NCBI GenBank assembly: GCA_934167825.1
Contig: CAKPLY010000002.1
Location: 105,900 to 169,899, forward strand
Length of the DNA stretch: 64,000 nt
Source of the DNA: an uncultured Bacilli bacterium
GTDB lineage: Bacteria; Bacillota_I; Bacilli_A; RF39; UBA660
Direction: 5' to 3'
This document shows, piece by piece, positions 1,188-35,293 of the stretch. How positions within the stretch are numbered: the stretch's first letter is position 1; each line of letters opens with the position of its first letter. A model generated the notes under the pieces. It saw nothing but the letters and a program-made list of their open reading frames with translations. It made no database searches and was not told the origin of the DNA. The position numbers and the translations under genes were made by a program.

Positions 1188-2285
1188 ATGATTAAATATA
1201 AAAATTTATATGCACTAGAATTTTTTGATGATAAGATAGATAATAAAAATAATTTAAACAGTTATAATTTATGTAATAATTTTTTAAATGTTGAAGTTAG
1301 AATTATTACTTTTTGCACTTTTGATAAGAGGGGAGAGTTTTGTTTAAGAGATAAAATAAGAGTTAGAGCATCATATAACTATAAGGATTATACTAAATAT
1401 AATGTTAATGATGAAGTTATTATAAGAATTAACGATGATAATATGCTTGATTTAAGTAATACTAAAATTGGTGGTAATACTCTTATTATAGGTAAGGGTA
1501 TAATAGATAAGATAAATAATGATATTATAGATATTAAACCCACTGGAGTATATGTACATAATTCTTCATATAAATATTTTAATGAAAAAGGTATAAATAT
1601 TAAAGATTATTTTACAAGTTATAATGATTTATATAGATTATTTGATGTTAATAGTAATGATAGCGTTAATATAGATAGATATAATAAATATACTAACTAT
1701 TATGATGGTATATTTAGTATTAGTTATAATTATTGGTATCTTACTTTAGAAAATTATGATTTAAACATGAAGAAAGAAAATGAATTTTATAATAGTTCTA
1801 ATAAGTTATCTGCAGTTTTGGCATCTAGTTCTTTTATAAATAAGATAAATAGTTTATTAAAAAAGAATAAGATATCTTCATGTAATGCATATATAAGATA
1901 TAAAAATACTGAGTTTGATATGTTAATTGTAGATAAAAATACTGAGGATAGTGTTATATATGAAGATAAGGTAGTTAAGGGGATTATTGAACTTAAGACT
2001 GCTGGATTATTTTTTAATAGCAAAGATAGAGAAGTTTTGTTAAATTCTTTTATCAAAAGATATGTTAAATATAATAAAAATTTTTTATACATATCATTAC
2101 ATGAAAGATATTATCCAAATGACACAAATAGGGTTAATTTTTATAAAGAATATATTGATTGTGAAAAGAAATATACTGATGCTTATTCTCTATTTATTAC
2201 TTTATCTAATTCTTCGAATAAATTTATTATACCTAGAAAGTATATTAGTATTTTAGATGTAGTTGACTTGATTGATAGTTTTTAA
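1188..2285 (+). CDS. Hypothetical protein, N/K/Y-rich; C-terminal half has a possible PD-(D/E)xK-like motif (FDMLIVD...GIIELKT)
   Basis: 365-aa ORF with no long competing ORF. The motif reading is tentative. Confidence 0.45.
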   Translation: MIKYKNLYALEFFDDKIDNKNNLNSYNLCNNFLNVEVRIITFCTFDKRGEFCLRDKIRVRASYNYKDYTKYNVNDEVIIRINDDNMLDLSNTKIGGNTLIIGKGIIDKINNDIIDIKPTGVYVHNSSYKYFNEKGINIKDYFTSYNDLYRLFDVNSNDSVNIDRYNKYTNYYDGIFSISYNYWYLTLENYDLNMKKENEFYNSSNKLSAVLASSSFINKINSLLKKNKISSCNAYIRYKNTEFDMLIVDKNTEDSVIYEDKVVKGIIELKTAGLFFNSKDREVLLNSFIKRYVKYNKNFLYISLHERYYPNDTNRVNFYKEYIDCEKKYTDAYSLFITLSNSSNKFIIPRKYISILDVVDLIDSF

Positions 2286-2443
2286 ACAATTCTTAATTAC
2301 ATATATGTTAATTATAATAAATTAATTTGGAAAAATACTTTAAAACTCTTGATTTTATTGTAATTTCATGATATCTTTAATATGTAAGTATAGATAAGAT
2401 ACTTACAATAAATTATTTAGATATTAGATGGAGGTAATAAGAA

Positions 2444-2716
2444 ATGACAAAAGCTGAATTAGTACAATTTATAGCAGAAAATGCTGATTTAACAAAAGCT
2501 GATGCTACTAGAGCATTAGACGCAGTAGTGGAAGGAATCACTAACGGTCTTAAAAAAGAAGGAAAAGTTACATTAGTTGGATTTGGTACTTTCACTGCTA
2601 AAAAGAGAGAGGCAAGAGAGGGAAGAAATCCTCAAACTGGAGAAACTGTTAAAATTGCTGCTCGTGTAGTTCCTGGATTTAAAGCTGGAAACAAATTAAA
2701 AGACGCATTAAACTAA
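2444..2716 (+). CDS. hup: DNA-binding protein HU
   Basis: 90 aa, MTKAELV...FGTF...REGRNPQTGE...PGFKAG, typical HU/IHF fold sequence. RBS GGAGG lies upstream. Confidence 0.95.
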   Translation: MTKAELVQFIAENADLTKADATRALDAVVEGITNGLKKEGKVTLVGFGTFTAKKREAREGRNPQTGETVKIAARVVPGFKAGNKLKDALN

Positions 2717-2720
2717 TAAG

Positions 2721-2750
2721 AAAACACTTCATAACGAAGTGTTTTTATTT
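2721..2750. terminator. Bidirectional rho-independent terminator between hup and the convergent ORF
   Basis: aaaacacttc-ataac-gaagtgtttt: 10-bp stem, A-run on one side and T-run on the other. Confidence 0.75.
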
Positions 2751-3380
2751 TACTCTTTTTAATACTTTACCATTTTTACCTATTGCATAGTAATAACTTC
2801 CGTTTTTAGTAGCGTACGCTTCAGTGATATCACAATGTATTTTATCTTTTATTTCAAGTAACATATTTATTTTTGATTCAATATCTTTGTCGCTTGTACT
2901 TCCATATACTCCTAAAACTACTGAGTTTGGTAGGTAATTATATAATTCATCCCAGTTTCTTATGTCTTTTTTAGAATATGGATTTTGAGTAACATATGTT
3001 AATGCAGTAATGCTTGTTAAATCTATTGGATGTGATGTTGGCGTAAATAGTACTAATGGTCTATCTCCTTGTACTATAAGTCTTCCTTTGATTAATAGAT
3101 TGTGGCATTCTTCTTTATCTAAATATGGGGTAATTCTAGACATTCTATTGTTAGTTGTTATACTATCATATTTACCTTTTCCTATTTCTACTGTACTAGG
3201 TTCATTTGCTAGTTGTATATCAAATGCAGATAAAAAAGCTATGTAATTGTTACTTATTAGTTTTCTTTCGTTTATCCATTCAGTAAATTCTTGTATAAAT
3301 AGTTCACTTTTTATGTCTGGATTCTTGATATTTTTTGATGTAATAAATTCTTTGATTAATAAAACTATATATTGTTCCAT
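2745..3380 (-). CDS. Hypothetical protein (211 aa), downstream of the XRE/S24 repressor on the same strand
   Basis: Long ORF with RBS GGAGG (rc of cctcc at ~3386). No family recognised. Confidence 0.5.
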   Translation of the reverse strand: MEQYIVLLIKEFITSKNIKNPDIKSELFIQEFTEWINERKLISNNYIAFLSAFDIQLANEPSTVEIGKGKYDSITTNNRMSRITPYLDKEECHNLLIKGRLIVQGDRPLVLFTPTSHPIDLTSITALTYVTQNPYSKKDIRNWDELYNYLPNSVVLGVYGSTSDKDIESKINMLLEIKDKIHCDITEAYATKNGSYYYAIGKNGKVLKRVK

Positions 3381-3495
3381 AATTACCTCCCTTTCAACGA
3401 TTTAATATTTTAGCATATCTTATATTATTTGTAAAGAGATTTTTATGGCTATTTTGTATTAAAAAAATATAGATAGATAATTGTTCTCTATATTT

Positions 3496-4161
3496 TTATT
3501 TTATTTCTCTATATACTGCAGTTACTTTTCCTAGTATCATTTCATTTGAAATTATATTTACGTTTATTGTTTGATATTTAGGATTTAATGCTTGTAGGAT
3601 TAATCCTTTGGGATAGCGATATAATCTACGTACTGATAAGATACCACTTTTTATGGCAATTACTATATCATCACCATTGTTATATTCTTTTTCTTTTTTA
3701 AAGTATATTTTATCTCCCTTAGTGTATACTGGTGACATTGAATCATCAAGTAGTTTTATTGATAATTCACTAGTAGTATTTACTGGTTCGTAAGTGGCGT
3801 TTTTATATGAATTAATAATCTTTTCACTTTGTGAAGTTAAGTTTTTGTCGTTTCTTAAGTTAGATATATATTCTTTGATAAATTTTTTCTCAAACATATC
3901 TTTTTCTTTTTTACTCATGGGAATTTCTTCGAATAATTCAGGTGATACATTAAAAATTCTACAAATTTCAAAAAAGATATCATATGGTATGTTTAAGCTT
4001 CCTGTTTCATATTTATGTAATGTTTGTCTGTTTTTTGTATGATTTAAGGCTTTTGATAAGTCTTCGAATGAATAATTATACTTTTGTCTAGATTCTTTTA
4101 ATATTTGACAGACAAAGGGTTTTAATTCTTCACTTACTAAATCCTGTTTTGTTGTTCTCAT
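3496..4161 (-). CDS. XRE-family HTH repressor fused to an S24 (LexA/CI-like) peptidase domain
   Basis: N-terminal HTH (SFEDLSKALNHTKNRQTLHKYETG). C-terminal LDDSMSP...GDDIVIA...GKV resembles the S24 Ser/Lys self-cleavage domain. Confidence 0.7.
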   Translation of the reverse strand: MRTTKQDLVSEELKPFVCQILKESRQKYNYSFEDLSKALNHTKNRQTLHKYETGSLNIPYDIFFEICRIFNVSPELFEEIPMSKKEKDMFEKKFIKEYISNLRNDKNLTSQSEKIINSYKNATYEPVNTTSELSIKLLDDSMSPVYTKGDKIYFKKEKEYNNGDDIVIAIKSGILSVRRLYRYPKGLILQALNPKYQTINVNIISNEMILGKVTAVYREIK

Positions 4162-13751: not shown

Positions 13752-15398
13752 TTATTTTAAAATTTTAATTGACATTTCATAGTCGTTAGCGTTGTCTTTT
13801 TCTTCAAGAGTTATTTTGTATCCACTGTTTTCTAATAATGGTATTAGGTTTCTTATCATATTTACTGCTGGTATAACGTCTACTTTTACCGCAGGTTGTA
13901 TGCTTTGTTCGTTATTAATTGGTCCTGTTGGTATATTAAATTCTGGAATTGGATTTGGTTGTGATACTGGCTCTTGTGGTGTTGGTTCTGGCATTACAGG
14001 ACTAGTTGGCATACTAAACTCTGGTAGCGGTGAAACTTGTGGCTGTTGTGCCATTTCTTGTTGAGGCGCTACTTCGGGTTGTGGCATTGATGGAACTGGT
14101 GGAATATTAAATTCTGGAACTGGATTTGGTTGTGGTGCTGGTTCTTGTGGTGTAAGTTCAGGCATTACAGGACTTGTTGGCATACTATATTCTGGAAGTG
14201 GTGAAACTTGTGGTTGTTGTACCATTTCTTGTTGAGGCACTACTTCTGGTTGTGGCATTGATGGAACTGGTGGAATATTAAATTCTGGAACTGGATTTGG
14301 TTGTGATACTGAATCTTGTGGTGTAAGTTCAGGCATTACAGGACTTGTTGGCATACTAAATTCAGGAAGCGGTGAAACTTGTGGTTGGTGTACCATTTCT
14401 TGTTGAGGTGCTACTTCGGGTTGTGACATTGATGGAACTGTTGTAGATATATTATTAGTATTATTTTCTACAGGAACTTCAAAATTTAGTGGTTGTTCTT
14501 CTAATGATGGGAAAAATGCAGAAGGTGAGGGTTCTACAACTTTATTACCTATAATTGCAGATGGCTCACTAGTTGCATACATTTCTTGTTTAGGTTGTTC
14601 CTTTAATAAATTGTTATATTGGTTAAAATTAAATTGGTTATTATTATCCATAGTTTTATTCTCCTTTTTATTCTTTTTTACTTCTTGTTCTTCTAGAAAA
14701 TCTATTTTATTTAATTCTTTTAATTTTACTTTATCTTGATTTTCTAACTCTTTATCTTTTAGTGATTCTTGTTCTTCTTCTTGTTTTATTAAATCATTAA
14801 AACTTACTTCTTTTTTATTTACTATTTCTTCAAGTGATTTTACTGTTAGTCTTTCTTTTAATATTCTTTCTAAAAGTAATGATTGTTCTTCTTTTGGTAC
14901 TTTTGTTAAAATTTTTGCGTGTCCTAAAGATATTTTTTTTCTTAATAGGGAGTCTTCTACTAAAGGGGTTAGTTTTAATAATTCTAGTTTGTTTTTTATA
15001 TCTTTTTCATTTGTATTTAGTTTACTAGATAATTTTTTTATTGTCATTTTATCTAATAATTTACTATATATTTTTGCTTCTTCTAGGGGAGTTAATGAAT
15101 TTTCATTTTCTAATAATGACAATATTATTGCATCTTCTTTTGATAAATCTAATACTACTGATGGTACATCTTTAATATATAATTTTTTTGCAACTCTATA
15201 CCTTTTTTCACCATCAATTAGTTCATAGTCATTATTATCTTTTCTTAGTGTTAATGGTTTTATAAATCCATATTTTTTTATAGAAAATGATAAGTTATCT
15301 AAGTCTTTTTTATCAATATATACTCTTGGTTGATATGAGTTTGATTTAATTTTATCTATGTTTATATATTTGATATTTATATATTCATTCATAATCAA
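13752..15398 (-). CDS. Divergent ParB/Noc-family protein with Pro/Gln-rich triple-repeat linker
   Basis: ParB N-domain (SYQPR...ELIDGEKRYRVAKK), HTH (...NKLELLKLTP...ISLGHAKIL), E/K-rich segment, 3 x 57-aa P/Q repeats, short C-terminal domain. Occupies the noc position next to rsmG. Confidence 0.8.
   Translation of the reverse strand: MIMNEYINIKYINIDKIKSNSYQPRVYIDKKDLDNLSFSIKKYGFIKPLTLRKDNNDYELIDGEKRYRVAKKLYIKDVPSVVLDLSKEDAIILSLLENENSLTPLEEAKIYSKLLDKMTIKKLSSKLNTNEKDIKNKLELLKLTPLVEDSLLRKKISLGHAKILTKVPKEEQSLLLERILKERLTVKSLEEIVNKKEVSFNDLIKQEEEQESLKDKELENQDKVKLKELNKIDFLEEQEVKKNKKENKTMDNNNQFNFNQYNNLLKEQPKQEMYATSEPSAIIGNKVVEPSPSAFFPSLEEQPLNFEVPVENNTNNISTTVPSMSQPEVAPQQEMVHQPQVSPLPEFSMPTSPVMPELTPQDSVSQPNPVPEFNIPPVPSMPQPEVVPQQEMVQQPQVSPLPEYSMPTSPVMPELTPQEPAPQPNPVPEFNIPPVPSMPQPEVAPQQEMAQQPQVSPLPEFSMPTSPVMPEPTPQEPVSQPNPIPEFNIPTGPINNEQSIQPAVKVDVIPAVNMIRNLIPLLENSGYKITLEEKDNANDYEMSIKILK
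13933..14445. repeat. Three tandem 171-bp (57-codon) in-frame repeats inside the ParB-like gene
   Basis: The unit starting atattaaattctggaa... recurs at 13933, 14104 and 14275 (period exactly 171 bp), with high identity by eye. Confidence 0.9.
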
Positions 15399-21714: not shown

Positions 21715-23475
21715 ATGTTTAAGGAAATAACTGCAATTAGTAAAAATTACGCAATTGTTAAGATTTCTAAAGGAATTAATGAGGATATACTTAATTTAAA
21801 TGCTATATTTGAAGAACGTAATAAAAAGATACTAGGAGAAATTGAAGAAATTATTGATGATACTGTTAAGATAAGCTTTTTAGGAGAGTTTATTGACGGA
21901 AAATTTTATAGTGGGATTATTAGAAAACCTAGTTTAACTTCCAATGTTAGATTAATTAATACAGATGAGTTAAATGAACTTGTTGGGGTTAATGATAGAT
22001 ATTCGATGATGCTTGGTTTATCTCCTTTATATAATAATTATCCTATTAGAATTAATATAGATAGAATGTTTAGTAACCATAGTGCTATTTTTGGAAATAC
22101 TGGTTCTGGTAAAACTTTTGGTGTTGCAAGACTTGTACAAAATTTATTTACTATGAAAGATAAAATACCTTTTAATAGTAATTTCTTTATTTTTAATAAT
22201 ACAAGTGAATATGATAATGCTTTTAATAGTATAAATAAGTATAATCCTAATTTTAATTATAAACTATATTCTACAAGTGAAGAAAACGGTAATAATTTAA
22301 TTAAACTTCCTTTATGGTTGTTAAATGTTGATGATTATGCAAATTTACTTGATGCAACACAGTATTCACAACTTACTGTTATTGAGAAAATGTTAAGTTT
22401 AGTATCTGTTTTTGCTAGAAATGATGAAATGTCTCATAAATATAAGAATCATTTAATTGCTAAGGCTATATTATCAGTAATGTATTCTAATCAAATGCCA
22501 GCAAGAATGAGAGATCAAATTTTTACAATTGTAGAAGATTGCCATACTCCTGAACTTAATTTAGATTACGAAGTACCTGGGGTAGGATATACAAGACAAT
22601 TTAGAAAATGTTTTGAACTTGATAGTCAAGGACAGTTTGTCGAAAGAATATTAATAGTGGAGTATATAGAAAAATTTATTGATAATGATACTAAATGGAA
22701 TGAAGATTATGTGCCAACTTATTTTACTTTGGATGACTTAGAGATTGCACTTAACTTTGCATTAATTAGTGAAGGACTTTTACTTAATGAAAAGTCTTAT
22801 GCTGAAGGAATTGCTTTGAAGGTTAAACTTCATACTCTTAATAATAGTTCTAATGCTAAATTTTTTAGCTATCCAAGTTATTGTAATACTGCTCAATTTA
22901 TTTCTAATATTATACTTATAAATAATAATAAGCGTGCTCAAATAATTAATTTTGTACTTGAGGATATAGATGATAGATTTGCTAAGGCTATTGTTAAGGT
23001 TTATTCTAGAATTTTATTTAGATTTACTAAATCAATGGTAAATAGAGGTTCTATGCCTATACATATAATGTTAGAAGAAGCACATAGATATGTTCAAAAA
23101 GATTTAGATAATGAAATACTCGGATATAATATATTTGAGAGAATTGCTAAAGAAGGAAGAAAGTTTGGATTAGTTTTAGACCTTATTACTCAAAGACCTA
23201 CAGAGTTATCAGAAACAGTAATATCTCAATGTAGTAATTTCTTAATTTTTAAGATTAATCATCCTACTGATTTGGATTATATTAGAAAAATGGTTCCTAA
23301 TATAAGTGCAGATGTTATTGAAAAACAAAAGTCTTTGCAATCAGGTACTTGTGTTGCTTTTGGACCGATGATGAAGATTCCTATGATTGTAAAAATGGAA
23401 CTTCCTAATCCAGAACCACAAAGTGCTAATGCTGCTATTTATAAAAATTGGATGATAGAATGGAATAGTAATTAA
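21715..23475 (+). CDS. HerA/DUF87-type P-loop ATPase
   Basis: N-terminal barrel-like region, Walker A GNTGSGKTF, Walker B-like IHIMLEEAHRY, and GRKFGLVLDLITQRP typical of HerA/FtsK-like ATPases. Confidence 0.7.
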   Translation: MFKEITAISKNYAIVKISKGINEDILNLNAIFEERNKKILGEIEEIIDDTVKISFLGEFIDGKFYSGIIRKPSLTSNVRLINTDELNELVGVNDRYSMMLGLSPLYNNYPIRINIDRMFSNHSAIFGNTGSGKTFGVARLVQNLFTMKDKIPFNSNFFIFNNTSEYDNAFNSINKYNPNFNYKLYSTSEENGNNLIKLPLWLLNVDDYANLLDATQYSQLTVIEKMLSLVSVFARNDEMSHKYKNHLIAKAILSVMYSNQMPARMRDQIFTIVEDCHTPELNLDYEVPGVGYTRQFRKCFELDSQGQFVERILIVEYIEKFIDNDTKWNEDYVPTYFTLDDLEIALNFALISEGLLLNEKSYAEGIALKVKLHTLNNSSNAKFFSYPSYCNTAQFISNIILINNNKRAQIINFVLEDIDDRFAKAIVKVYSRILFRFTKSMVNRGSMPIHIMLEEAHRYVQKDLDNEILGYNIFERIAKEGRKFGLVLDLITQRPTELSETVISQCSNFLIFKINHPTDLDYIRKMVPNISADVIEKQKSLQSGTCVAFGPMMKIPMIVKMELPNPEPQSANAAIYKNWMIEWNSN

Positions 23476-23516: not shown

Positions 23517-23755
23517 TGTGGATAACTTTTGAGTTTTCCACAGACTTTTCCACAGTTTATCCACAGGTTAAACACTTATAAAATAAGGAAAAAATTGACT
23601 TTTCCACAGGTAACACCAAAAAATCAACAAAATTTGCTTTCTGTGGAAAACTTTTTCCACAGGTTAGTAAACTGTGGAAACTGTGGATAACTATAACAAA
23701 TCCTTGGAAAATAAGGGTTAAATAATAAAAGTTTTCCACAGGTTGCTGTGGATAA
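23517..23755. promoter_or_regulatory. oriC part 1: cluster of 11 DnaA boxes upstream of dnaA
   Basis: Perfect TTATCCACA/TGTGGATAA at 23517, 23557, 23682 and 23747. One-mismatch TTTTCCACA/TGTGGAAAA at 23534, 23546, 23600, 23642, 23653 and 23732. TGTGGAAAC at 23673. Confidence 0.9.
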
Positions 23756-23885
23756 GTGCCTTTTTATAACTAATTTGTTATGTAAAAATGGAGAATAAAA
23801 ATTTTAGTTAATTTCTTGTTAATTAATATAGACAAATTCTTTTTTTGTGCTAAAATAAATGTATGTAGTTAGGAGGAGTATATTT

Positions 23886-25256
23886 ATGGATACAAATTTG
23901 TTATGGAAAAACTTTTTAGAAAAAATGAAAGAACAAATTTCTTCATTATCATATACAACATGGTTTAAAGATACTAGATTATATAGTATTGAAGACTCCA
24001 CTGCTACTATTATTGTTCCTTATGGGTTACATAAAAAGCATATAATGGAAAATTATAAAGAAGAAATGGAAAGTATATTTAACGAAATTACTGGAACTAA
24101 TTTTAATTTAGTTTTTAAAGAAGAAGCTGAAGTCAATAATGATAATAATAAAATTAGTAATGTAATAGACGTTAATGATAGTGTTTCTTTAGGAGTTCCA
24201 AGACAAAGTTTAGATGAAGCAAATTTAAAACCAGAATATACTTTTGATACATTTATTGTAGGAGATTCAAATAGATTTGCTTTTACTGCCGCAAGAGCAG
24301 TTGCAGAGCAACCTGGAAAAGCTTATAATCCTTTGTTTTTATATAGTAAAAGTGGACTTGGAAAAACTCACTTGATGCAATCTATTGGTAATTATATACT
24401 TAAAAATTCAAATAAAAGAGTTTTATATGTTTCTAGTGATAATTTTGTTAATGATTATATTAATGCTGTTAGAACTGAAGGGAAAAATAATGTTGAAAAA
24501 ATTGATGATTTTAAAAATAAGTATAGAAATATTGATGTTTTAATTATTGATGATATACAATTTTTAGGAAATGCAACAAAAGGACAAGAAGAATTTTTCC
24601 ATACTTTTAATGAATTATATAATTCTAATAAACAAATTATTATTGCATCCGATAGGTCCGTTGATGATTTAAAAATGCTTGAAAATAGACTTCTTACTCG
24701 TTTTAATTGGGGACTTACTGCTAATATTACACCACCTGATTTTGACCTTAGAATAAGTATAATAAAAAGGAAAATTGCACATCAAGAAAGTGCTGAAGAT
24801 GTACCCAAAGATGTTATTGAGTATATTGCAAATAATTATGATTCTGATATAAGACAATTAGAAGGTGCAATAACTAGAGTATTTGCATATGCTACAATGT
24901 TTAATCATGGAGTGGTAACTTTAAATGTTGCGATTGACTCACTAAAAGACCAATTAAGTGATAAAAGTGTCTATAAAAATGATATACATAGGATACAAAG
25001 AGTAGTATGTGATTATTATAAAATAAATATTGATGATTTAAAAGGTAAAAAAAGAAGTAAGGATGTTAATTATCCAAGACAAATTGCAATTTATTTATGT
25101 AGAGAGTTAACTACTGAGTCTTACCCTAAAATCGGAACGTATTTTGGAGGAAGAGATCATTCAACGGTCATAAATGCATATCAAAAAATTGAAACAGATT
25201 TGAAAAATAATGATCAACTTGCAGTTGTAATTGCAGAACTTAAGAAAAATTTATAA
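23886..25256 (+). CDS. dnaA: Chromosomal replication initiator protein DnaA
   Basis: MDTNLLWKNFLE..., Walker A GLGKTHL, IDDIQFL, C-terminal DNA-binding HTH (FGGRDHSTV). ATG 23886 has RBS AGGAGGAG. Confidence 0.97.
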   Translation: MDTNLLWKNFLEKMKEQISSLSYTTWFKDTRLYSIEDSTATIIVPYGLHKKHIMENYKEEMESIFNEITGTNFNLVFKEEAEVNNDNNKISNVIDVNDSVSLGVPRQSLDEANLKPEYTFDTFIVGDSNRFAFTAARAVAEQPGKAYNPLFLYSKSGLGKTHLMQSIGNYILKNSNKRVLYVSSDNFVNDYINAVRTEGKNNVEKIDDFKNKYRNIDVLIIDDIQFLGNATKGQEEFFHTFNELYNSNKQIIIASDRSVDDLKMLENRLLTRFNWGLTANITPPDFDLRISIIKRKIAHQESAEDVPKDVIEYIANNYDSDIRQLEGAITRVFAYATMFNHGVVTLNVAIDSLKDQLSDKSVYKNDIHRIQRVVCDYYKINIDDLKGKKRSKDVNYPRQIAIYLCRELTTESYPKIGTYFGGRDHSTVINAYQKIETDLKNNDQLAVVIAELKKNL

Positions 25257-25264
25257 ATTTAGGT

Positions 25265-25365
25265 TGTGGATAACCTGTGGATAACTTTTGAGTTTTCCAC
25301 AGGGGCTGTGGAAAAAATTAACCTTATTTTACAAGGGATTAGGTGAGTTTTCCACAGTTTCCACA
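25265..25365. promoter_or_regulatory. oriC part 2: six DnaA boxes between dnaA and dnaN
   Basis: TGTGGATAA at 25265 and 25276, TTTTCCACA at 25293 and 25348, TGTGGAAAA at 25307, GTTTCCACA at 25357. Confidence 0.85.
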
Positions 25366-26577: not shown

Positions 26578-26605
26578 GATTTTAAGCTTAAAATCTGTTT
26601 TTTTT
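26578..26605 (+). terminator. Rho-independent terminator after dnaN
   Basis: gattttaag/cttaaaatc palindromic stem followed by a T8 run. Confidence 0.7.
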
Positions 26606-26681
26606 GCTGTTTTTCGACAAAAAGCGGCATGGATCGACAAATATATATGTTTTAATATTTCACTCGAAAGGGGGCAAAAAA

Positions 26682-27137
26682 ATGACCAATGAATACATTA
26701 TTAATTCAATGACTTTAATGTTAAAGTATATTGATGAGACAAAAACTCTTGTGTATGAAGACGATAGAGAAATTATTGTTGATTTAAATATTTTTGATAT
26801 TGTATCAGGTAGTTGTTATTTTTATGGAAGTACTTATAGTGGTAGAATATTATATAGTAAGTCAGTTTTAAAAACTAATATTAAAGTTCCTATATTTATT
26901 GATTATTTAAATGATATAATTTTATTTCCTACTAAATCTTATAAAAATAAAGATTGTATTTGGATTATTTATAATAATGTAAAAAAATTTGAAAAATATA
27001 AATATGGTTCTAAAATATGTTTTAAAAACAATAAAGAATTTTTTACACCAACATCTTATGAAATTATAGATAGACAAATTTATAATTGTTTAAGATTAGA
27101 AAAAGAAAATAGATTTAAGAAAAATATAAGTATATAA
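26682..27137 (+). CDS. ComK-family protein
   Basis: SCYFYGSTYSGR...KVPIFI...IILFPTKS...DCIWI matches the conserved ComK pattern (C..(F/Y)G.S..GR...K.PI...FPT.S...W). ATG 26682 has RBS AAAGGGGG. Confidence 0.6.
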   Translation: MTNEYIINSMTLMLKYIDETKTLVYEDDREIIVDLNIFDIVSGSCYFYGSTYSGRILYSKSVLKTNIKVPIFIDYLNDIILFPTKSYKNKDCIWIIYNNVKKFEKYKYGSKICFKNNKEFFTPTSYEIIDRQIYNCLRLEKENRFKKNISI

Positions 27138-30358: not shown

Positions 30359-32929
30359 ATGGATAATGAATTAAATAATGAAATAAATAATACTGACAAT
30401 AATATAAGTAATGATATAAATGATTCTTTAGTTAAAGATAATGAAATAAATGATGAGGAAGTAAATAATTTTGGTGGTTCTTTTCATGAAAGAGATAGCT
30501 TAGCAGAAAATAATATTGTAGAAGAGGTTAAAAGGTCATTTTTAGACTATTCTATGAGCGTAATTACCTCTCGTGCTATTCCAGACTTAAGAGATGGTTT
30601 AAAGCCTGTACACAGACGTATTTTGTGGAGTATGTTTAATTCTGGATACACACCAGATAAACCACATAGAAAATCTGCAAAAACAGTTGGTGAGGTTATG
30701 GGTAATTATCATCCTCATGGTGATTCATCAATTTACGAAGCAATGGTAAGAATGGCACAAGATTTTAACCAAAGATATATTTTGATTGATGGACATGGAA
30801 ATTTTGGTAATATTGAGGGAGACGGCGCTGCTGCAATGCGTTATACCGAGTCAAGATTATCAAAACTATCTTTAGAACTTCTTAGAGATATAAGAAAAGA
30901 TACTGTAGACATGGGTAAAAACTTTGATGAAACTTTAGATGAACCTGTCGTTTTACCTAGTAGATTTCCAAATATCTTAGTTAATGGTACAATGGGTATT
31001 GCTGTTGGTATGGCAACAAATATTCCACCTCATAATTTAGGTGAAGTAATTGATGGTTGTGTTGCTTATATTGATAATCCTGATATTGATACTTTAGGTT
31101 TGATGCGATACATTAAGGGACCTGATTTTCCTACTGGTGGGATTATATTAGGAAATTCAGGTATTAAAAAAGCTTATGATACAGGGCGCGGTTCAATTAC
31201 TATAAGAAGTAGGGCAACTATTGAGGAACATAATAATCATAGTCAAATTATTATTACTGAAGTTCCTTATGGTGTAAATACTATGGAACTTAAAAATAAG
31301 GTTGCAGAATTAGTTAGGGATAAAGTTATAGAAGGTATATCTGATTACCATACTGATTTAAAAGATGGTGTAAAAATTACTATAACTCTTAAACGTGAAG
31401 CAAATGCTCAAGTAGTTTTAAATAATTTATATAAACATACTAATTTTCAAATAAGTTATGGTATTATTTTCTTGATGATAGATAATGGTACTCCAAGAAC
31501 ATTAGGATTAAAGGATATAATTTCAAAATATATAGACTATCAAAGAGAAGTTATTATTAGAAGAACTAAATTTGATTTAAATAAAGACGAAAAGAGAGTT
31601 CATATATTAGAAGGTTATAAAATTGCACAAGATAATATTGATGAAGTAATTAGTATTATTAAAAATGCGGAAAGTGATATTGTTGCAAAAGAGCAATTAA
31701 TGGCTAGATTTGGATTTAGTGAGATACAAACAGATGCTATATTAGAATTGAAATTACGTAGATTAACTGGTTTAGAAAGAGAAAAAATTGAGGCTGAATT
31801 GGCAATGTTATTAAAAGAAATAGAAGAACTTAAATCAATTCTAGCTGATGGTCAAAAGGTTTTAAATATAATTAAAGAAGAATTACTTGAAATAAAAGGT
31901 AAATTTGCTGATGAAAGAAGAACTTCTATTGATATGACTGCTATTGATTATATCGAGGACGAATCTTTAATTCCAGTAGAGGATATAGTTATTACTTTAA
32001 CAAATAAGGGATATATCAAGAGATTAAAGGCTGATACTTATAGAACGCAAAATAGAGGCGGTATGGGTATTAAAGGTATGTCTACAAATGAAGAGGATTT
32101 CGTTGAGCATATAATTAATTCTACTACGCATGATTATATATTTATGTTTACAAATAAGGGAAAGGTATACCGTATAAAAGGTTACGAAATACCTGAATAT
32201 AGTAGACAATCTAAAGGTTTACCTGTGATTAATCTTCTAAACTTAGAAAAAGATGAAAAAATAACATCTTTATTAAAGGTTTTAAAAGATGATGATAATA
32301 AATATTTAATATTTGCTACTAAGAGTGGTTTAATAAAACGTACTGATATTACAGAATTTGATAATATTAGAACTAATGGAAAGAAATTTATTACTTTAAA
32401 AGGTGATGATGAGTTAGTTTCTGTTAAGAAAACTACTGGAGAAAACGACATTTTAATGGCTTCTTCTAAAGGAAGAGTTGTTAGATTTAATGAAAATTGT
32501 ATTAGAGTTATGGGACGTTCTGCAGCTGGTGTTAGAGGTATTAACTTAGGTGATGGACATTTGGTTGGTATGGAGATTGCCGTTCCAAATATTGATGTTT
32601 TAGTTGTTACTGAAAAGGGATATGGAAAGAAAACTCCTATCGATGAGTATAGAATTACTAATCGTGGTGGTAAAGGTGTAAAAACATTAAATATAACTGA
32701 GAAAAATGGTAATTTAGTATCTTTAAAAACTGTTACAGATGTTAATGATTTGATGATTATAACTAATATTGGTATTGTTATTAGGTTATCTATTGAAAAA
32801 ATTTCTTCGATGAGTAGAGTTACACAAGGAGTTAAACTTATTAATTTGAAAAATGAACAATTTGTAAGTTCTACAGCAATTATTAACAAAAATGAAGAAG
32901 AATTTAAAGATTTAGAGGAAGAAAATTAA
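30359..32929 (+). CDS. gyrA: DNA gyrase subunit A (with ~45-aa N/D-rich N-terminal extension)
   Basis: DGLKPVHRR, HPHGD, AAAMRYTE (catalytic Tyr), C-terminal beta-pinwheel repeats. Strong RBS AAAGGAGG. Confidence 0.98.
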   Translation: MDNELNNEINNTDNNISNDINDSLVKDNEINDEEVNNFGGSFHERDSLAENNIVEEVKRSFLDYSMSVITSRAIPDLRDGLKPVHRRILWSMFNSGYTPDKPHRKSAKTVGEVMGNYHPHGDSSIYEAMVRMAQDFNQRYILIDGHGNFGNIEGDGAAAMRYTESRLSKLSLELLRDIRKDTVDMGKNFDETLDEPVVLPSRFPNILVNGTMGIAVGMATNIPPHNLGEVIDGCVAYIDNPDIDTLGLMRYIKGPDFPTGGIILGNSGIKKAYDTGRGSITIRSRATIEEHNNHSQIIITEVPYGVNTMELKNKVAELVRDKVIEGISDYHTDLKDGVKITITLKREANAQVVLNNLYKHTNFQISYGIIFLMIDNGTPRTLGLKDIISKYIDYQREVIIRRTKFDLNKDEKRVHILEGYKIAQDNIDEVISIIKNAESDIVAKEQLMARFGFSEIQTDAILELKLRRLTGLEREKIEAELAMLLKEIEELKSILADGQKVLNIIKEELLEIKGKFADERRTSIDMTAIDYIEDESLIPVEDIVITLTNKGYIKRLKADTYRTQNRGGMGIKGMSTNEEDFVEHIINSTTHDYIFMFTNKGKVYRIKGYEIPEYSRQSKGLPVINLLNLEKDEKITSLLKVLKDDDNKYLIFATKSGLIKRTDITEFDNIRTNGKKFITLKGDDELVSVKKTTGENDILMASSKGRVVRFNENCIRVMGRSAAGVRGINLGDGHLVGMEIAVPNIDVLVVTEKGYGKKTPIDEYRITNRGGKGVKTLNITEKNGNLVSLKTVTDVNDLMIITNIGIVIRLSIEKISSMSRVTQGVKLINLKNEQFVSSTAIINKNEEEFKDLEEEN

Positions 32930-32940
32930 TAAAAAGTTGA

Positions 32941-32970
32941 TGAAAACGTGAAAAAAGCGTTTTCATTTTT
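32941..32970 (+). terminator. Rho-independent terminator after gyrA
   Basis: tgaaaacg-tgaaaaaag-cgttttca followed by a T-run. Confidence 0.75.
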
Positions 32971-33055
32971 ATTTTCCCTTGTAATTACATACGCATACAT
33001 TTGTTTGCATGTTGATAACTTTTTTGAATATAGAAATAAATTGTAAATTTATTTT

Positions 33056-33073
33056 ATGTTCCACGTGGAACAT
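33056..33073. promoter_or_regulatory. parS: parS-type site 1
   Basis: Exact 18-mer. Perfect palindrome extends to 28 bp (33051-33078). Confidence 0.85.
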
Positions 33074-33311
33074 AAAATGTTATAATAATTTATGTTTGTG
33101 TTTTATATTTATAATGTTTAAAAGTTTCTTATCTATTTATATAATTTTATCCTGTTGATAAACGTAATATAATTAGTATTATTTTTAAATACATAATCTG
33201 TTGATAGAATAATTTTATTATTTATGATAGGTAAGTAATATATATTTATATAAATTATATGAAGTATTTTTTGATATTAATTACAATATTGAATATTTCT
33301 TTTATAAAATA

Positions 33312-33329
33312 ATGTTCCACGTGGAACAT
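33312..33329. promoter_or_regulatory. parS: parS-type site 2
   Basis: Exact 18-mer with no arm extension. Left boundary of duplication copy A. Confidence 0.85.
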
Positions 33330-33479
33330 AAACAATGGATGTTTATATACAAATATTAAAGCAGTATAATATTTATAGATTATATTTTTTAATAATTCTT
33401 ATAGTTTATTGCTTATTATTTTGTGTATAATAGTTTTATTTGAATACATTAATAATGATGTTTTTGCGTTTTTTATGTC

Positions 33480-33497
33480 ATGTTCCACGTGGAACAT
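33480..33497. promoter_or_regulatory. parS: parS-type site 3
   Basis: Exact 18-mer. Perfect palindrome extends to 38 bp (33470-33507). Confidence 0.85.
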
Positions 33498-33719
33498 GAC
33501 ATAAAAATAAATTTTAATTAAATGTATTTAAGTGATTTAAAAAAAAGAGTTATATTTATTTGTTTAAATTAATATTAATATCATTATTATAGAGCGTTAT
33601 TTTATAATAAATTATTATTATTTTTTTATAAATCGTTGTTTTGATATTATTTTATTAGTAACTGTTAAGAATCTTACTTACGAAAAAATTACATCATTTA
33701 ATTTTTATTTGTCATATTC

Positions 33720-33737
33720 ATGTTCCACGTGGAACAT
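33720..33737. promoter_or_regulatory. parS: parS-type site 4
   Basis: Exact 18-mer. Perfect palindrome extends to 30 bp (33714-33743). Confidence 0.85.
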
Positions 33738-33836
33738 GAATATAGATATATATATAATATTATTTTTAATTAATATTTATTTAATATATGTTTAATTATT
33801 ATTATTTTGTTGTATTTTTTGTATTGATGATTTTTT

Positions 33837-33854
33837 ATGTTCCACGTGGAACAT
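33837..33854. promoter_or_regulatory. parS: parS-type site 5
   Basis: Exact 18-mer. Perfect palindrome extends to 30 bp (33831-33860). Confidence 0.85.
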
Positions 33855-33973
33855 AAAAAAATACTTTAGTTAAGTTTGATTTTGTTAATAAATTTATTTA
33901 ACAAATTTATAACTTATATTTTTCATTAAATTGTTATTATATATTATTTATTATTACTTTTTTGTATATATAT

Positions 33974-33991
33974 ATGTTCCACGTGGAACAT
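33974..33991. promoter_or_regulatory. parS: parS-type site 6
   Basis: Exact 18-mer. Its right flank gacataaaaa equals the right arm of site 3. Confidence 0.85.
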
Positions 33992-34130
33992 GACATAAAA
34001 ATCTTTTGTATGTTAAAATGATTTTTATATTGATAAAATTGTTATTTATATAATATAGAGTACATATTTAGATTATTTTTTTAAGTTAAACTAAAATTTT
34101 TTTGTTGTATTATTTTATTAAATTTTATTT

Positions 34131-34148
34131 ATGTTCCACGTGGAACAT
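34131..34148. promoter_or_regulatory. parS: parS-type site 7
   Basis: Exact 18-mer. Perfect palindrome extends to 30 bp (34125-34154). Left boundary of duplication copy B. Confidence 0.85.
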
Positions 34149-34298
34149 AAATAATGGATGTTTATATACAAATATTAAAGCAGTATAATATTTATAGATT
34201 ATAATTTTTAATAATTCTTATAGTTTGTTGCTTATTATTTTGTGTATAATATTTTTATTTAAATATATTAATAATGATATTTTTATGTTTTTTATGTC

Positions 34299-34316
34299 AT
34301 GTTCCACGTGGAACAT
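34299..34316. promoter_or_regulatory. parS: parS-type site 8
   Basis: Exact 18-mer (22-bp palindrome, 34297-34318). Left flank equals the site 3 arm and right flank equals the site 4 arm, so it is a hybrid. Confidence 0.85.
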
Positions 34317-34432
34317 GAATATGAATATATATGATATTATTTTTAATTAGTATTTATTTAATATGTGTTCAATTATTATTATTTTTTTATATACTCAAAT
34401 CTGTTGTTATATATTTTTATTGGTGTTTTTCT

Positions 34433-34450
34433 ATGTTCCACGTGGAACAT
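34433..34450. promoter_or_regulatory. parS: parS-type site 9
   Basis: Exact 18-mer. Perfect palindrome extends to 32 bp (34426-34457). Confidence 0.85.
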
Positions 34451-34678
34451 AGAAAAAATACTTTAATTAAGTTTAATTTTGTTAATAAATTTATTTAACA
34501 AATTTATAACTTATATTTTTCGTTAAATTGTTATTATATATTATTTATCATTGCTTTTTTGTATATATATATTAAATATTAGTTATTACTGTGTTTGAGT
34601 ATATTGTATTGATTTAGAAAATACTTATTTAACTGTTTTGTAATAACGATTTAAAAAGATGTGCATATATTTTATTTC

Positions 34679-34696
34679 ATGTTCCACGTGGAACAT
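34679..34696. promoter_or_regulatory. parS: parS-type site 10
   Basis: Exact 18-mer. Perfect palindrome extends to 38 bp (34669-34706). Confidence 0.85.
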
Positions 34697-34843
34697 GAAA
34701 TAAAAATTTATATAAAATATTGATTATTTATAAAATATATTGTATTATTAATATGCAACATTAATGTTAGAACCAGGTCAGGAATGGAAATTAGCAGCCT
34801 TAATAACCTCTTAATGTGTGCATTTTTTTTATTTATAATTATT

Positions 34844-34861
34844 ATGTTCCACGTGGAACAT
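34844..34861. promoter_or_regulatory. parS: parS-type site 11
   Basis: Exact 18-mer, ending 18 nt before the tadA ATG. Confidence 0.85.
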
Positions 34862-34879: not shown

Positions 34880-35293
34880 ATGAATATTGAATTTTTTAAA
34901 AAAACAATTGAACTTGCTGAAAAAGCCTGTTTTGAAAATGAAGTTCCTGTTGGTGCAGTAGTTGTTAAAGATAATAAAATTATTGGTTGTGGATATAATA
35001 AAAAAGAGCAAACTAAAGATCCTACAATGCATGCTGAATTTATTGCAATTCGCGAGGCATGCAATTTTATTGGTGATTGGAGACTAGATGATTGTGATTT
35101 ATATGTAACATTAAAACCGTGTATGATGTGTTGTGGATTAGTTGTTGAAACACGTATTAGAAATGTATATTATATTTTAGATAAGTGCGAACAATCGTAC
35201 GATAATAAACACCATATTTTACAAGACTTTACGTTAAAAAAGTACTATTTAAATTTATTACAAAATTTTTTTAAGAAATTGAGAAATAAATGA
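34880..35293 (+). CDS. tadA: tRNA-specific adenosine deaminase
   Basis: HAEFIAIREA and PCMMCCG zinc motifs. ATG 34880 has RBS GGAAAGAG. The track ORF start at 34784 would read through parS site 11 and is rejected. Confidence 0.85.
   Translation: MNIEFFKKTIELAEKACFENEVPVGAVVVKDNKIIGCGYNKKEQTKDPTMHAEFIAIREACNFIGDWRLDDCDLYVTLKPCMMCCGLVVETRIRNVYYILDKCEQSYDNKHHILQDFTLKKYYLNLLQNFFKKLRNK

What the first reader, a model, noticed from the sequence alone, without database searches (positions are those of the whole stretch)
33051..34706. parS cores sit inside longer perfect palindromes whose arms differ between sites yet stay symmetric
Palindrome extent beyond the 18-bp core:

| Site | Perfect palindrome | Coordinates |
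|---|---|---|
| 1 | 28 bp | 33051-33078 |
| 3 | 38 bp | 33470-33507 |
| 4 | 30 bp | 33714-33743 |
| 5 | 30 bp | 33831-33860 |
| 7 | 30 bp | 34125-34154 |
| 8 | 22 bp | 34297-34318 |
| 9 | 32 bp | 34426-34457 |
| 10 | 38 bp | 34669-34706 |

The arm sequences are site-specific: ttttatgtc, atattc, tttttt, ttattt, tttttct, ttttatttc.

The paralogous sites 5 and 9 differ by a change present in both arms: tttttt/aaaaaa versus tttttct/agaaaaa. So symmetry has been preserved or regenerated after divergence.

ParB needs only about 16 bp, so the extra symmetry points to one of three things:
- a palindrome-homogenising mechanism (hairpin- or cruciform-templated repair, or inverted duplication about the dyad)
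- a structural role such as cruciform extrusion in AT-rich supercoiled DNA
- a second factor reading the arms
Basis: seen in the sequence. Interest (0 to 1): 0.7.

Follow-up and report, generated by a model that had tools for sequence, protein, structure and literature searches.

The report
Self-symmetrising arms around clustered parS sites
Eleven identical chromosome-partition (parS) sites near the replication origin of an uncultured gut bacterium mostly sit inside longer perfect palindromes whose arms differ from site to site, and strain comparisons show the two arms keep being re-matched to each other, most likely by a known replication copying error, not by a demonstrated function.

Summary
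The 1.9-kb gyrA-tadA spacer, about 8-10 kb from oriC, holds 11 copies of ATGTTCCACGTGGAACAT. Eight lie in perfect palindromes of 22-38 bp. One correction: site 10 is 36 bp (34670-34705), not 38.

- **Not chance.** Arm symmetry totals 51 nt beyond the cores, against 9-16 under three composition nulls (P <= 1e-4).
- **Mirrored changes.** Ten strain-level arrays show changes at +-2, +-4 and +-5.
- **Polarised changes.** Seven changes raise complementarity and one lowers it. They include a templated +C insertion and a 3-substitution cluster.
- **Ghost palindromes.** Complementary half-arms of 12-14 nt are now split between sites or strains.
- **Source of asymmetry.** Asymmetric sites are chimeras made by recombination at the identical cores.
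- **No sequence constraint.** Arm sequence is not conserved (19% divergence against 15% in the flanks). Only the symmetry persists.

A sequence-reading second factor is therefore unlikely. The best explanation is intra-palindrome templated copying (quasipalindrome template switching or hairpin-templated correction) seeded by the perfect core. Selection for cruciform or hairpin formation cannot be excluded. Some related lineages show the same arms. 118 isolated perfect parS sites in viral contigs do not.

This is a new variant of a known kind, of moderate interest.

The parts
33051..33078 (.). parS site 1: 28-bp perfect palindrome (core 33056-33073, arms ATTTT|AAAAT)
   Evidence: The same arms occur in 9 strains. 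They are broken in the divergent strain L246.
33312..33329 (.). parS site 2: core only (18 bp). It is a chimera of the LB left flank and the G1-type right flank AAACAATGGATG.
   Evidence: L006 and L007 have two separate sites here (aaaata|gaaatag and TTGTTT|AAACAA). The window site equals a deletion between their cores.
33470..33507 (.). parS site 3: 38-bp perfect palindrome (arms TTTTTATGTC|GACATAAAAA)
   Evidence: Invariant in 9 strains. DNA hairpin energy is -16.1 kcal/mol.
33714..33743 (.). parS site 4: 30-bp perfect palindrome (arms ATATTC|GAATAT)
   Evidence: Its left arm matches the right arm of site 8 for 8 nt.
33831..33860 (.). parS site 5: 30-bp perfect palindrome (arms TTTTTT|AAAAAA). 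It is a paralogue of site 9.
   Evidence: (repeat D4).
33974..33991 (.). parS site 6: core only. It is a chimera of an (AT)n left flank and a site-3-type right arm GACATAAAAAT.
34125..34154 (.). parS site 7: 30-bp perfect palindrome (arms TTATTT|AAATAA). Its allele in other strains is TCATTT|AAATGA and its paralogue is TTGTTT|AAACAA.
34297..34318 (.). parS site 8: 22-bp palindrome. It is a chimera of a site-3-type left arm and a site-4-type right arm. In L002, L003 and L248 a +C insertion in the right arm raises it to 30 bp.
34426..34457 (.). parS site 9: 32-bp perfect palindrome (arms TTTTTCT|AGAAAAA). L003 extends it to 34 bp by +8 A>C. L002 breaks it by -2 C>T.
34670..34705 (.). parS site 10: 36-bp perfect palindrome (arms TTTTATTTC|GAAATAAAA). 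The ancestral right arm is GAAATAATA, which gives 32 bp.
   Evidence: The T allele is present in L246 and in paralogous flanks.
34844..34861 (.). parS site 11: core only. It is wedged between a TATAAT-like box and SRP RNA on the left and the tadA ribosome-binding region (GGAAAGAG) on the right.
   Evidence: Both flanks are invariant in all strains.
34553..34590 (.). Core-less remnant of a former site. An LF/LL-type left flank is joined through (AT)n to the RX right flank, which still adjoins a core in L002, L003 and L007.
   Evidence: inference from flank homology.
13752..15398 (-). ParB-family gene (548 aa), the only candidate parS-binding protein in the window
   Evidence: Pfam ParB_N and HTH_ParB. 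The NCBIfam best hit is Noc-like but below its cut-off.

Best explanation
The sites are ordinary chromosomal parS sites, packed into an origin-proximal array in AT-rich non-coding DNA. The long, site-specific palindromic arms are most likely a mutational by-product.

Proposed mechanism:
1. The perfect, GC-centred 18-bp core lets a nascent strand, or an extruded hairpin, fold back on itself.
2. DNA synthesis or repair then briefly uses the opposite arm as template.
3. This copies a few to about 14 nt across the dyad, which is quasipalindrome template switching or hairpin-templated correction.
4. The copying extends the palindrome, repairs mismatches and spreads a new mutation from one arm to the other.

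Two processes oppose it. Recombination or slippage between the identical cores shuffles left and right flanks and makes asymmetric chimeras. Long AT-armed palindromes also get deleted.

What is shown: the symmetry, the mirrored substitutions, the directional changes toward complementarity, and the chimeras. What is inferred: that the template is the opposite arm of the same site, that the event happens during replication (possibly helped by ParB acting as a roadblock), and that the arms have no function of their own.
For: - **Excess symmetry.** It far exceeds the composition nulls. Covariation is 0.238 against 0.153 in shuffles (0 of 500 reach it) and 0.10-0.15 with slid partners.
- **Mirrored allelic and paralogous changes** at +-2, +-4 and +-5. 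The TCATTT|AAATGA allele has no possible donor elsewhere in any array.
- **Polarised changes toward complementarity**, using L246 and paralogous flanks as outgroups:
  - +8 T>A in site 10.
  - +8 A>C in L003 site 10.
  - A +C insertion turning GAAT into GACAT opposite TATGTC in L002.9, L003.9 and L248.7.
  - +2 A>T in the fresh deletion chimera L005.6.
  - A cluster aata>tttc opposite GAAAT in L002.2, L003.2 and L248.2.
  - LI -7 C>T and LI -9 A>T.
  - Only one clear change goes the other way: L002.10 -2 C>T.
- **Ghost palindromes.** The L246.9 left arm ATATAATCTATTTC is the exact reverse complement of the right flank GAAATAGATTATAT found at other sites and strains (14 nt, implying a 46-bp ancestor). 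A second case spans 12 nt.
- **Arm sequence is not conserved.** Divergence between L246 and L006 is 19% in the arms and 15% in the outer flanks.
- **Sites without arms are explained.** They are recombination chimeras, or the one site with both flanks constrained.
- **Hairpin stability.** Extended hairpins fold at -11 to -16 kcal/mol; core-only hairpins at about -5.
- **The mechanism is established.** It makes quasipalindromes 'perfect or more perfect' (PMC7202029). Protein blocks on DNA stimulate it (PMC6357072). It expands inverted repeats at dimeric factor sites in yeast (PMC13100816).
- **Recurrence.** The phenomenon recurs in independent lineages with perfect cores: L010 (palindromes of 42, 36, 28 and 28 bp; P = 0.0014), L008, L014, and the sister genus L116/L117.
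Against: - Selection for symmetry would produce the same mirrored and directional patterns. Sequence data cannot separate biased mutation from biased fixation.
- Several corrections are single, non-contiguous bases (LI -7 and -9 changed but -8 did not). That looks more like stepwise fixation or mismatch correction than one copying tract.
- Some events (the +C insertion, the tttc cluster) could instead be short ectopic conversions from a paralogous site that shares a flank and the core.
- Old asymmetric chimeras such as LL|RI persist in five strains, so re-symmetrisation is not fast.
- 118 isolated perfect TGTTCCACGTGGAACA sites in viral contigs show almost no extension: mean 0.7 nt, with one exception. 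A perfect core alone is therefore not sufficient, although many of those sites are probably in coding DNA.
- The arm that changed is the right one in 4 events and the left one in 3, so no clear replication-strand bias supports the model.
Confidence: 0.55

Rival explanations
1. The extended palindromes are selected because hairpin or cruciform extrusion at parS has a function in AT-rich, negatively supercoiled origin-proximal DNA. Possible roles include helping ParB or SMC loading or marking the centromere. Under this view, compensatory substitutions are fixed by selection on stem integrity.
For: - Symmetry is maintained while arm sequence drifts. That is the classic signature of a structural constraint.
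- Arms raise predicted hairpin stability from about -5 to -11 to -16 kcal/mol and bring stems to 13-17 bp.
- The feature recurs in several related lineages.
- Stepwise single-base corrections (LI -7, LI -9, then +8) fit compensatory evolution.
Against: - No known ParB/parS system needs a cruciform (my own knowledge; the literature search found nothing).
- Three or four of the 10-12 sites in every strain lack arms and persist. One asymmetric chimera is shared by five strains.
- Relatives with equally dense arrays lack arms: L018, L023 and L049.
- The longest arms (12-14 nt) were not kept together in any sampled strain.
- Arm divergence is not lower than flank divergence, whereas compensatory evolution should slow it.
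Confidence: 0.2
2. No intra-site templating is needed. The symmetry comes only from recombination among array members. The core is palindromic, so any two sites can pair in direct or inverted register. Inverted-register conversion or inversion between tandem duplicates (x|y)(x|y) gives (x|rc x). Short ectopic conversion tracts then spread symmetric arms from symmetric donors.
For: - The arrays are clearly mosaics of flank modules exchanged exactly at the cores, with segmental duplications of 577-819 bp.
- The +C insertion and the tttc cluster each have a paralogous donor sharing one flank plus the core.
- Long arms are seen in arrays and not at isolated sites.
Against: - The allele TCATTT|AAATGA and the L246 palindrome TAAAGTA|TACTTTA have no donor arm anywhere in the sampled arrays.
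- Single-arm changes in L003.10, site 10 and L005.6 also have no paralogous donor.
- Inversion between duplicates would give arms as long as the shared flank (tens to hundreds of bp). Arms are 2-14 nt with no residual symmetry beyond them (columns 1-7 are near background).
- No spacer was found convincingly in both orientations (the best inter-site inverted matches are 74-80% complementary over 38-59 nt and include the shared core).
Confidence: 0.15
3. ParB itself (here an unusual 548-aa homologue) or a second protein contacts DNA beyond the 16-18-bp core. Under this view the arms are an extended, degenerate recognition or shape element, with a T-tract on the 5' side and an A-tract on the 3' side.
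For: - Left arms are strongly T-rich (39 T against 6 A in 51 nt, counted) and right arms A-rich, against the T-rich bias of the region.
- Position +-10 is Y/R at most sites.
- The ParB homologue is atypical.
Against: - Permuting right flanks among sites keeps any such consensus, yet gives only about 30% of the observed symmetry.
- Arms differ in sequence between sites and include site-specific G:C pairs.
- Arm sequence evolves as fast as the flanks.
- Related lineages have arms with the opposite or a mixed A/T orientation.
- Armless sites persist.
Confidence: 0.05
4. The arm symmetry is a chance or composition effect of A/T homopolymer runs, or an assembly artefact.
For: The region is 83% A+T, and many arms are T-runs facing A-runs.
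Against: - Three nulls are exceeded with P <= 1e-4.
- Arms contain mirrored G:C pairs.
- The same arms occur in independent assemblies from different studies and assemblers.
Confidence: 0.01

Closest known systems
Chromosomal parS centromere-like sites bound by ParB/Spo0J (consensus TGTTNCACGTGAAACA)
   Same: The 16-bp core TGTTCCACGTGGAACA is identical to the functional perfect-palindrome sites parS2 and parS3 of Pseudomonas aeruginosa (PMC4368675). It is one base from the Bacillus-type consensus (PMC7022226). The sites are origin-proximal, and a ParB-family gene lies nearby.
   Different: - Eleven identical perfect sites are packed into 1.8 kb of non-coding DNA. They are not scattered, degenerate or mostly intragenic.
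- Most carry 2-10 extra perfectly symmetric, site-specific base pairs per side.
- The ParB homologue is 548 aa with a P/Q-rich repeat linker, and no ParA is seen in the window.
Quasipalindrome-associated template-switch mutagenesis (Ripley model; E. coli thyA/lacZ QP reporters of the Lovett laboratory)
   Same: Mutations make an imperfect inverted repeat 'perfect or more perfect' by copying the opposite arm (PMC7202029). They include templated indels and multi-base clusters. Proteins blocking the fork stimulate them (PMC6357072). The changes seen here are of exactly these kinds.
   Different: Here the process is inferred from natural polymorphism at a protein-binding centromere array, not measured in a reporter. 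No strand bias or exonuclease dependence could be tested. Selection has not been excluded.
Inverted-repeat expansion at binding sites of dimeric transcription factors by template switching in yeast promoters (PMC13100816)
   Same: A palindromic protein-binding site acts as a seed, and the inverted repeat grows outward and is homogenised.
   Different: That work concerns eukaryotic promoters and single sites. Here a bacterial partition-site array shows many parallel, site-specific expansions, together with reshuffling by core-to-core recombination.
Template-switch origin and maintenance of RNA and miRNA hairpins (for example bioRxiv 10.1101/2023.04.19.537475, listed)
   Same: One-step creation of perfect stems and apparent compensatory substitutions without selection.
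   Different: Nothing here indicates a functional RNA. The only Rfam matches to the palindromes are sub-threshold miRNA models, which reflect the hairpin shape alone.

Membership tests
Chromosomal parS (ParB/Spo0J binding site) | 16-bp inverted repeat matching TGTTNCACGTGAAACA | tested here: met
   All 11 cores are TGTTCCACGTGGAACA. That is 15 of 16 to the consensus and identical to the experimentally bound P. aeruginosa parS2 and parS3.
Chromosomal parS (ParB/Spo0J binding site) | Location in the origin-proximal domain | tested here: met
   dnaA lies at 23859-25256, flanked by TTATCCACA clusters at 23517-23755 and 25265-25284. The array is 8-10 kb to the right, after dnaN-recF-gyrB-gyrA. GC skew is positive rightward from about 24 kb.
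Chromosomal parS (ParB/Spo0J binding site) | A cognate ParB (and usually ParA) encoded by the genome | tested here: inconclusive
   There is one ParB_N + HTH_ParB protein at 13752-15398. Its best NCBIfam match is the Noc model at 166 bits, below the 315-bit cut-off. Its CTP motif reads GEKRYR. No ParA was found among the ORFs that were scanned, though not every ORF in the window was scanned. The rest of the genome was not available.
Chromosomal parS (ParB/Spo0J binding site) | Specific ParB binding and CTP-dependent spreading from the site | not testable with these tools
   Needs ChIP-seq or in-vitro binding.
Quasipalindrome template-switch hotspot | Inverted repeat able to form a stable intrastrand hairpin | tested here: met
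   The core-only hairpin folds at about -5 kcal/mol. Extended sites fold at -10.8 to -16.1 kcal/mol, with z-scores of -5.4 to -6.5.
Quasipalindrome template-switch hotspot | Observed mutations increase arm complementarity and match the opposite arm, including indels and multi-base clusters | tested here: met
   Seven polarised changes go toward complementarity and one goes away. They include a +C insertion and a 3-substitution cluster. Ghost arms of 12 and 14 nt were also found.
Quasipalindrome template-switch hotspot | Replication dependence, strand bias, suppression by 3' exonucleases | not testable with these tools
   The changed arm is the right one in 4 events and the left one in 3, so no bias is detectable. 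The genetics cannot be tested here.
Intrinsic (Rho-independent) terminator | GC-rich stem-loop followed directly by a U-tract | tested here: not met
   The T-runs lie 5' and the A-runs 3' of the core, and they pair with each other inside the stem. Only two of the extended palindromes and one core-only site are flagged by the loose scan, through unrelated downstream T-rich DNA. The real gyrA terminator is at 32939-32967.
Mobile palindromic repeat (MITE/REP-like) | Copies share the same terminal inverted repeats, often with target-site duplications | tested here: not met
   Only the 18-bp core is shared. Arms are site-specific, with 40 distinct left and 36 distinct right 24-nt flanks in 10 strains.
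Functional cruciform-forming palindrome | Extrusion of a cruciform in supercoiled DNA with a biological consequence | not testable with these tools
   Only the sequence potential is shown: perfect 28-38-bp palindromes in DNA that is 83% A+T.

The most novel reading that the evidence does not exclude
The arms are not a by-product. In this AT-rich lineage the partition sites would be selected to extrude as cruciforms or hairpins, and that structure would be part of how the centromere array works, for instance in loading ParB or SMC or in pairing sites. This would make it a structure-dependent bacterial centromere, with palindrome symmetry and not sequence as the conserved feature.
Probability: 0.12. 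Interest if true: 0.85.

Novelty: new variant of a known kind. Interest (0 to 1): 0.5.

Why it matters
If the templated-copying reading is right, this array is a natural, multi-copy record of quasipalindrome template switching at a protein-bound site in a wild bacterial population. It shows extension, mismatch correction, apparent compensatory substitutions without selection, and decay by recombination, all side by side.

That carries two warnings. Covariation in a palindrome need not mean a functional structure. Tight protein-DNA complexes such as ParB-parS may also be mutational hotspots.

If the arms are instead selected, they would point to an unrecognised structural requirement at bacterial centromeres.

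Either way the array offers a simple experimental system: one 18-bp core, defined arms, and a clear read-out.

Tried and rejected
- **Genome-collection scan with DnaX.** The species' own reference genome and its name were not recovered.
- **Metagenome scan with TadA.** It gave only one close contig (L088, L004-like).
- **Exact-protein look-ups.** Many returned the same contigs. Short-read contigs break inside the array. The TadA homologue at 65% identity had only contigs of 1.5 kb or less, with no array.
- **Rfam.** The palindromes match only sub-threshold miRNA models, which I rejected as hairpin-shape artefacts.
- **Terminator reading.** Rejected.
- **MITE/REP reading.** Rejected because the arms differ between copies.
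- **Generic property of any perfect parS.** Rejected on 118 isolated sites. That sample is mostly of unknown coding status, so it is an imperfect control.
- **Replication-strand bias.** The first four polarised events were all in the right arm. Adding L246 as outgroup revealed three left-arm events, so I dropped the idea.
- **Inversions of spacers between sites.** I looked for them and found none convincing.
- **Literature.** The searches found no report of extended palindromes or cruciforms at parS.
Full report
**Context**

The window has 25% G+C and carries a classic Firmicute origin region:
- dnaA at 23859-25256, flanked by TTATCCACA clusters
- dnaN
- a ComK homologue
- recF, gyrB and gyrA (gyrA ends at 32929)
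- about 1.9 kb without ORFs
- tadA (34880-35293), dnaX, ybaB and recR

An SRP RNA gene lies at 34747-34832. The nearest DnaX relatives in the genome collection are uncultured Bacilli MAGs at about 43% identity. All close relatives come from gut metagenomes. A ParB-family gene lies at 13752-15398.

**The observation**

One search found 11 copies of ATGTTCCACGTGGAACAT between 33056 and 34861. There is no degenerate copy (up to 3 mismatches) anywhere else in the 64 kb.

Perfect palindromes around the cores measure 28, 18, 38, 30, 30, 18, 30, 22, 32, 36 and 18 bp.

The extension beyond the cores sums to 51 nt. The nulls give:

| Null | Result |
|---|---|
| Random centres in the same spacer | 0.6 nt per site |
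| Right flanks permuted among sites | mean sum 15.6 (P = 1e-4) |
| Each 10-nt flank shuffled | mean sum 9.0 (0 of 20000 reach 51) |

The seven longest perfect palindromes in the window are all parS-centred. A/T runs therefore do not explain the symmetry.

**Strain comparison**

Exact-protein look-ups recovered the same locus from other metagenomes. The set is L001 (identical to the window), L002-L007, L088, L248 and a clearly more divergent strain, L246.

Arrays have 10-12 sites. They are mosaics: a limited set of left-flank and right-flank modules is recombined exactly at the cores.

The armless sites of the window are explained this way:
- Site 2 equals a deletion between two neighbouring sites that are still separate in L006 and L007.
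- Sites 6 and 8 are left/right chimeras.
- Site 11 has both flanks fixed by neighbouring functional elements (SRP RNA and a TATAAT-like box on the left, the tadA ribosome-binding region on the right).
- A core-less remnant of a further site lies at about 34553-34590.

**Symmetry is actively kept**

In the best-sampled family (site 7 and its paralogue), five distinct alleles differ at +-4 (A:T or G:C) and at +-5 (T:A or C:G). The changes always come as complementary pairs. Positions +-7 to +-12 are essentially unpaired.

L002 carries the half-changed state.

On 30 distinct sites, one search gives these covariation scores:

| Condition | Covariation score |
|---|---|
| Observed | 0.238 |
| Shuffled | 0.153 (0 of 500 reach the observed value) |
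| Partners slid by 1-3 columns | 0.10-0.15 |

With L246 and paralogous flanks as outgroups, seven derived changes raise complementarity:
1. Site 10, +8 T>A: arm of 7 nt becomes 9 nt.
2. L003 site 10, +8 A>C: 7 becomes 8.
3. A +C insertion in the right arm of the chimeric site 8 homologue in L002, L003 and L248 (GAAT becomes GACAT, opposite TATGTC): 2 becomes 6.
4. +2 A>T in the fresh deletion chimera L005.6: 1 becomes 5.
5. A three-substitution cluster, aata>tttc, opposite GAAAT in L002.2, L003.2 and L248.2.
6. LI -7 C>T.
7. LI -9 A>T.

Only one clear change lowers complementarity: L002.10, -2 C>T.

For arms of about 7 nt, unbiased mutation should break symmetry roughly 20 times more often than it extends it (my own estimate).

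**Ghost palindromes**

The left arm of L246.9, ATATAATCTATTTC, is the exact reverse complement of the right flank GAAATAGATTATAT. That flank sits at other sites in other strains. This implies a former 46-bp perfect palindrome whose halves were later separated. A second case spans 12 nt.

In L246 the site that is asymmetric in every other strain is a 32-bp palindrome, TAAAGTA|TACTTTA.

**What is not conserved**

Between L246 and L006 the inner 7 nt of the arms differ at 19% of positions and the outer flanks at 15%. Only the symmetry persists, not the arm sequence. This argues against a factor that reads arm sequence.

**Distribution**

- **Sister genus** (TadA 58% identical): it has the same 18-bp core in a 7-9-site array at the same locus, with arms such as GCTT|AAGC and ATATTC|GAATAT plus chimeras.
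- **More distant uncultured Bacilli** with perfect TGTTTCACGTGAAACA cores: they also show long site-specific arms. L010 has palindromes of 42, 36, 28 and 28 bp (P = 0.0014). L008 and L014 show them too.
- **Arrays built of hybrid cores or tandem direct repeats** (L018, L023, L049): no long arms.
- **118 isolated perfect sites in viral contigs**: a mean extension of 0.7 nt, with one exception.

Long arms are therefore a property of some non-coding arrays, not of parS in general.

**Mechanism**

The changes are of the kind defined for quasipalindrome template switching. In that process the polymerase stalls, the nascent strand folds back, and the opposite arm is copied, which makes the repeat 'perfect or more perfect' (PMC7202029). 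Protein blocks on DNA stimulate the process (PMC6357072). It has been shown to expand inverted repeats at dimeric factor sites in yeast (PMC13100816).

The core alone gives a hairpin of about -5 kcal/mol, which is enough to seed fold-back. Extended sites reach -11 to -16 kcal/mol.

I infer that this process, or the equivalent hairpin-templated correction, builds and repairs the arms. I also infer that core-to-core recombination and deletion of AT-armed palindromes undo them.

Several things are not shown:
- That the template is the same site and not a paralogue. Some events have possible donors; others, such as TCATTT|AAATGA, have none.
- That ParB contributes.
- That the arms are functionless.

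The changed arm is the right one in four events and the left one in three, so there is no usable strand-bias signal.

**Rivals**

- **Selection for cruciform or hairpin formation.** It predicts the same covariation and cannot be excluded. Against it: armless sites are tolerated for long periods, related arrays have no arms, the longest arms were lost, and arm divergence is not reduced.
- **Recombination among sites alone.** It cannot explain arm states that have no donor, and it would give much longer arms.
- **Extended protein recognition.** It fails the permutation test and the conservation test.
- **Terminators, mobile repeats, chance and assembly error.** All rejected.

**Comparison and verdict**

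The sites meet the sequence and position criteria for chromosomal parS. The core is identical to the experimentally bound P. aeruginosa parS2 and parS3. The cognate ParB is only tentatively identified.

The arm behaviour meets the sequence-level criteria of a quasipalindrome hotspot. The genetic criteria are untestable here. I found no report of such arms at parS.

I rate it as a new variant of a known kind, with interest 0.5.

Noticed in passing
window 34747-34832 (+): A bacterial small SRP RNA gene (RF00169, 61 bits, E = 1.5e-12) sits inside the 'non-coding' region, between parS sites 10 and 11. Site 11 therefore lies between the SRP RNA gene and tadA.
   Followed up: partly
window 13752-15398 (-): The ParB-family protein is 548 aa, about twice the usual length. 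ParB_N and HTH occupy the first 200 aa or so. Three tandem P/Q-rich repeats of about 50 aa follow, then a short C-terminal domain. The CTP-binding motif reads GEKRYR. The best NCBIfam hit is Noc, below its cut-off. The gene follows rsmG directly, with no ParA/Soj gene beside it.
   Followed up: partly
window ~34553-34590: This looks like a former parS site that has lost its core. A left flank homologous to that of site 6 (and to the LL flank of other strains) runs through (AT)n straight into the flank TAAATATTAGTTATTACT. In L002, L003 and L007 that flank adjoins a core. This is consistent with deletion of an AT-armed palindrome by slippage.
   Followed up: partly
window 33010-33018 and 33153-33161 (-): Two exact TTATCAACA motifs (DnaA-box-like, one mismatch from TTATCCACA) lie in the left part of the array region. 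The window holds 7 in total against 2 expected. The true TTATCCACA clusters flank dnaA at 23517-23755 and 25265-25284.
   Followed up: no
window 26604-27137 (+) and 21715-23475 (+): A ComK homologue lies between dnaN and recF. A HerA/DUF87-type ATPase (586 aa) lies immediately upstream of the dnaA-proximal DnaA boxes. Both are unusual neighbours for an origin region.
   Followed up: no
window 33312-33499 vs 34131-34318; 33856-33975 vs 34453-34572; 33748-33815 vs 34325-34392: There are segmental duplications inside the array (95%, 96% and 91% identity; offsets of 819, 597 and 577 bp). The array has grown by duplicating blocks of several sites plus spacers.
   Followed up: partly
L008, L010, L014, L018, L021, L023, L027, L028, L049, L068, L081 (about 0.1-1.5 kb upstream of the dnaX match); L116/L117 positions 2245-3670: Many uncultured low-GC Bacilli carry a parS array at the same place, upstream of tadA/dnaX. 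The two perfect core versions, TGTTTCACGTGAAACA and TGTTCCACGTGGAACA, differ by a mirrored pair at +-3. Hybrid cores occur in arrays built of 44-bp tandem direct repeats (L049).
   Followed up: partly
L182 position 9799 (IMG/VR contig 3300031746_003158): A lone 38-bp perfect palindrome, CCTGCAAATA-TGTTCCACGTGGAACA-TATTTGCAGG, occurs in a viral-collection contig with 33% G+C. It is the only long-armed case among 118 isolated sites.
   Followed up: no
L246 (whole array, positions ~960-2600): A divergent strain of the same species has 10 sites, all with flanks differing from the other nine arrays. Its intergenic region is shorter (1643 bp). It served here as an outgroup.
   Followed up: yes
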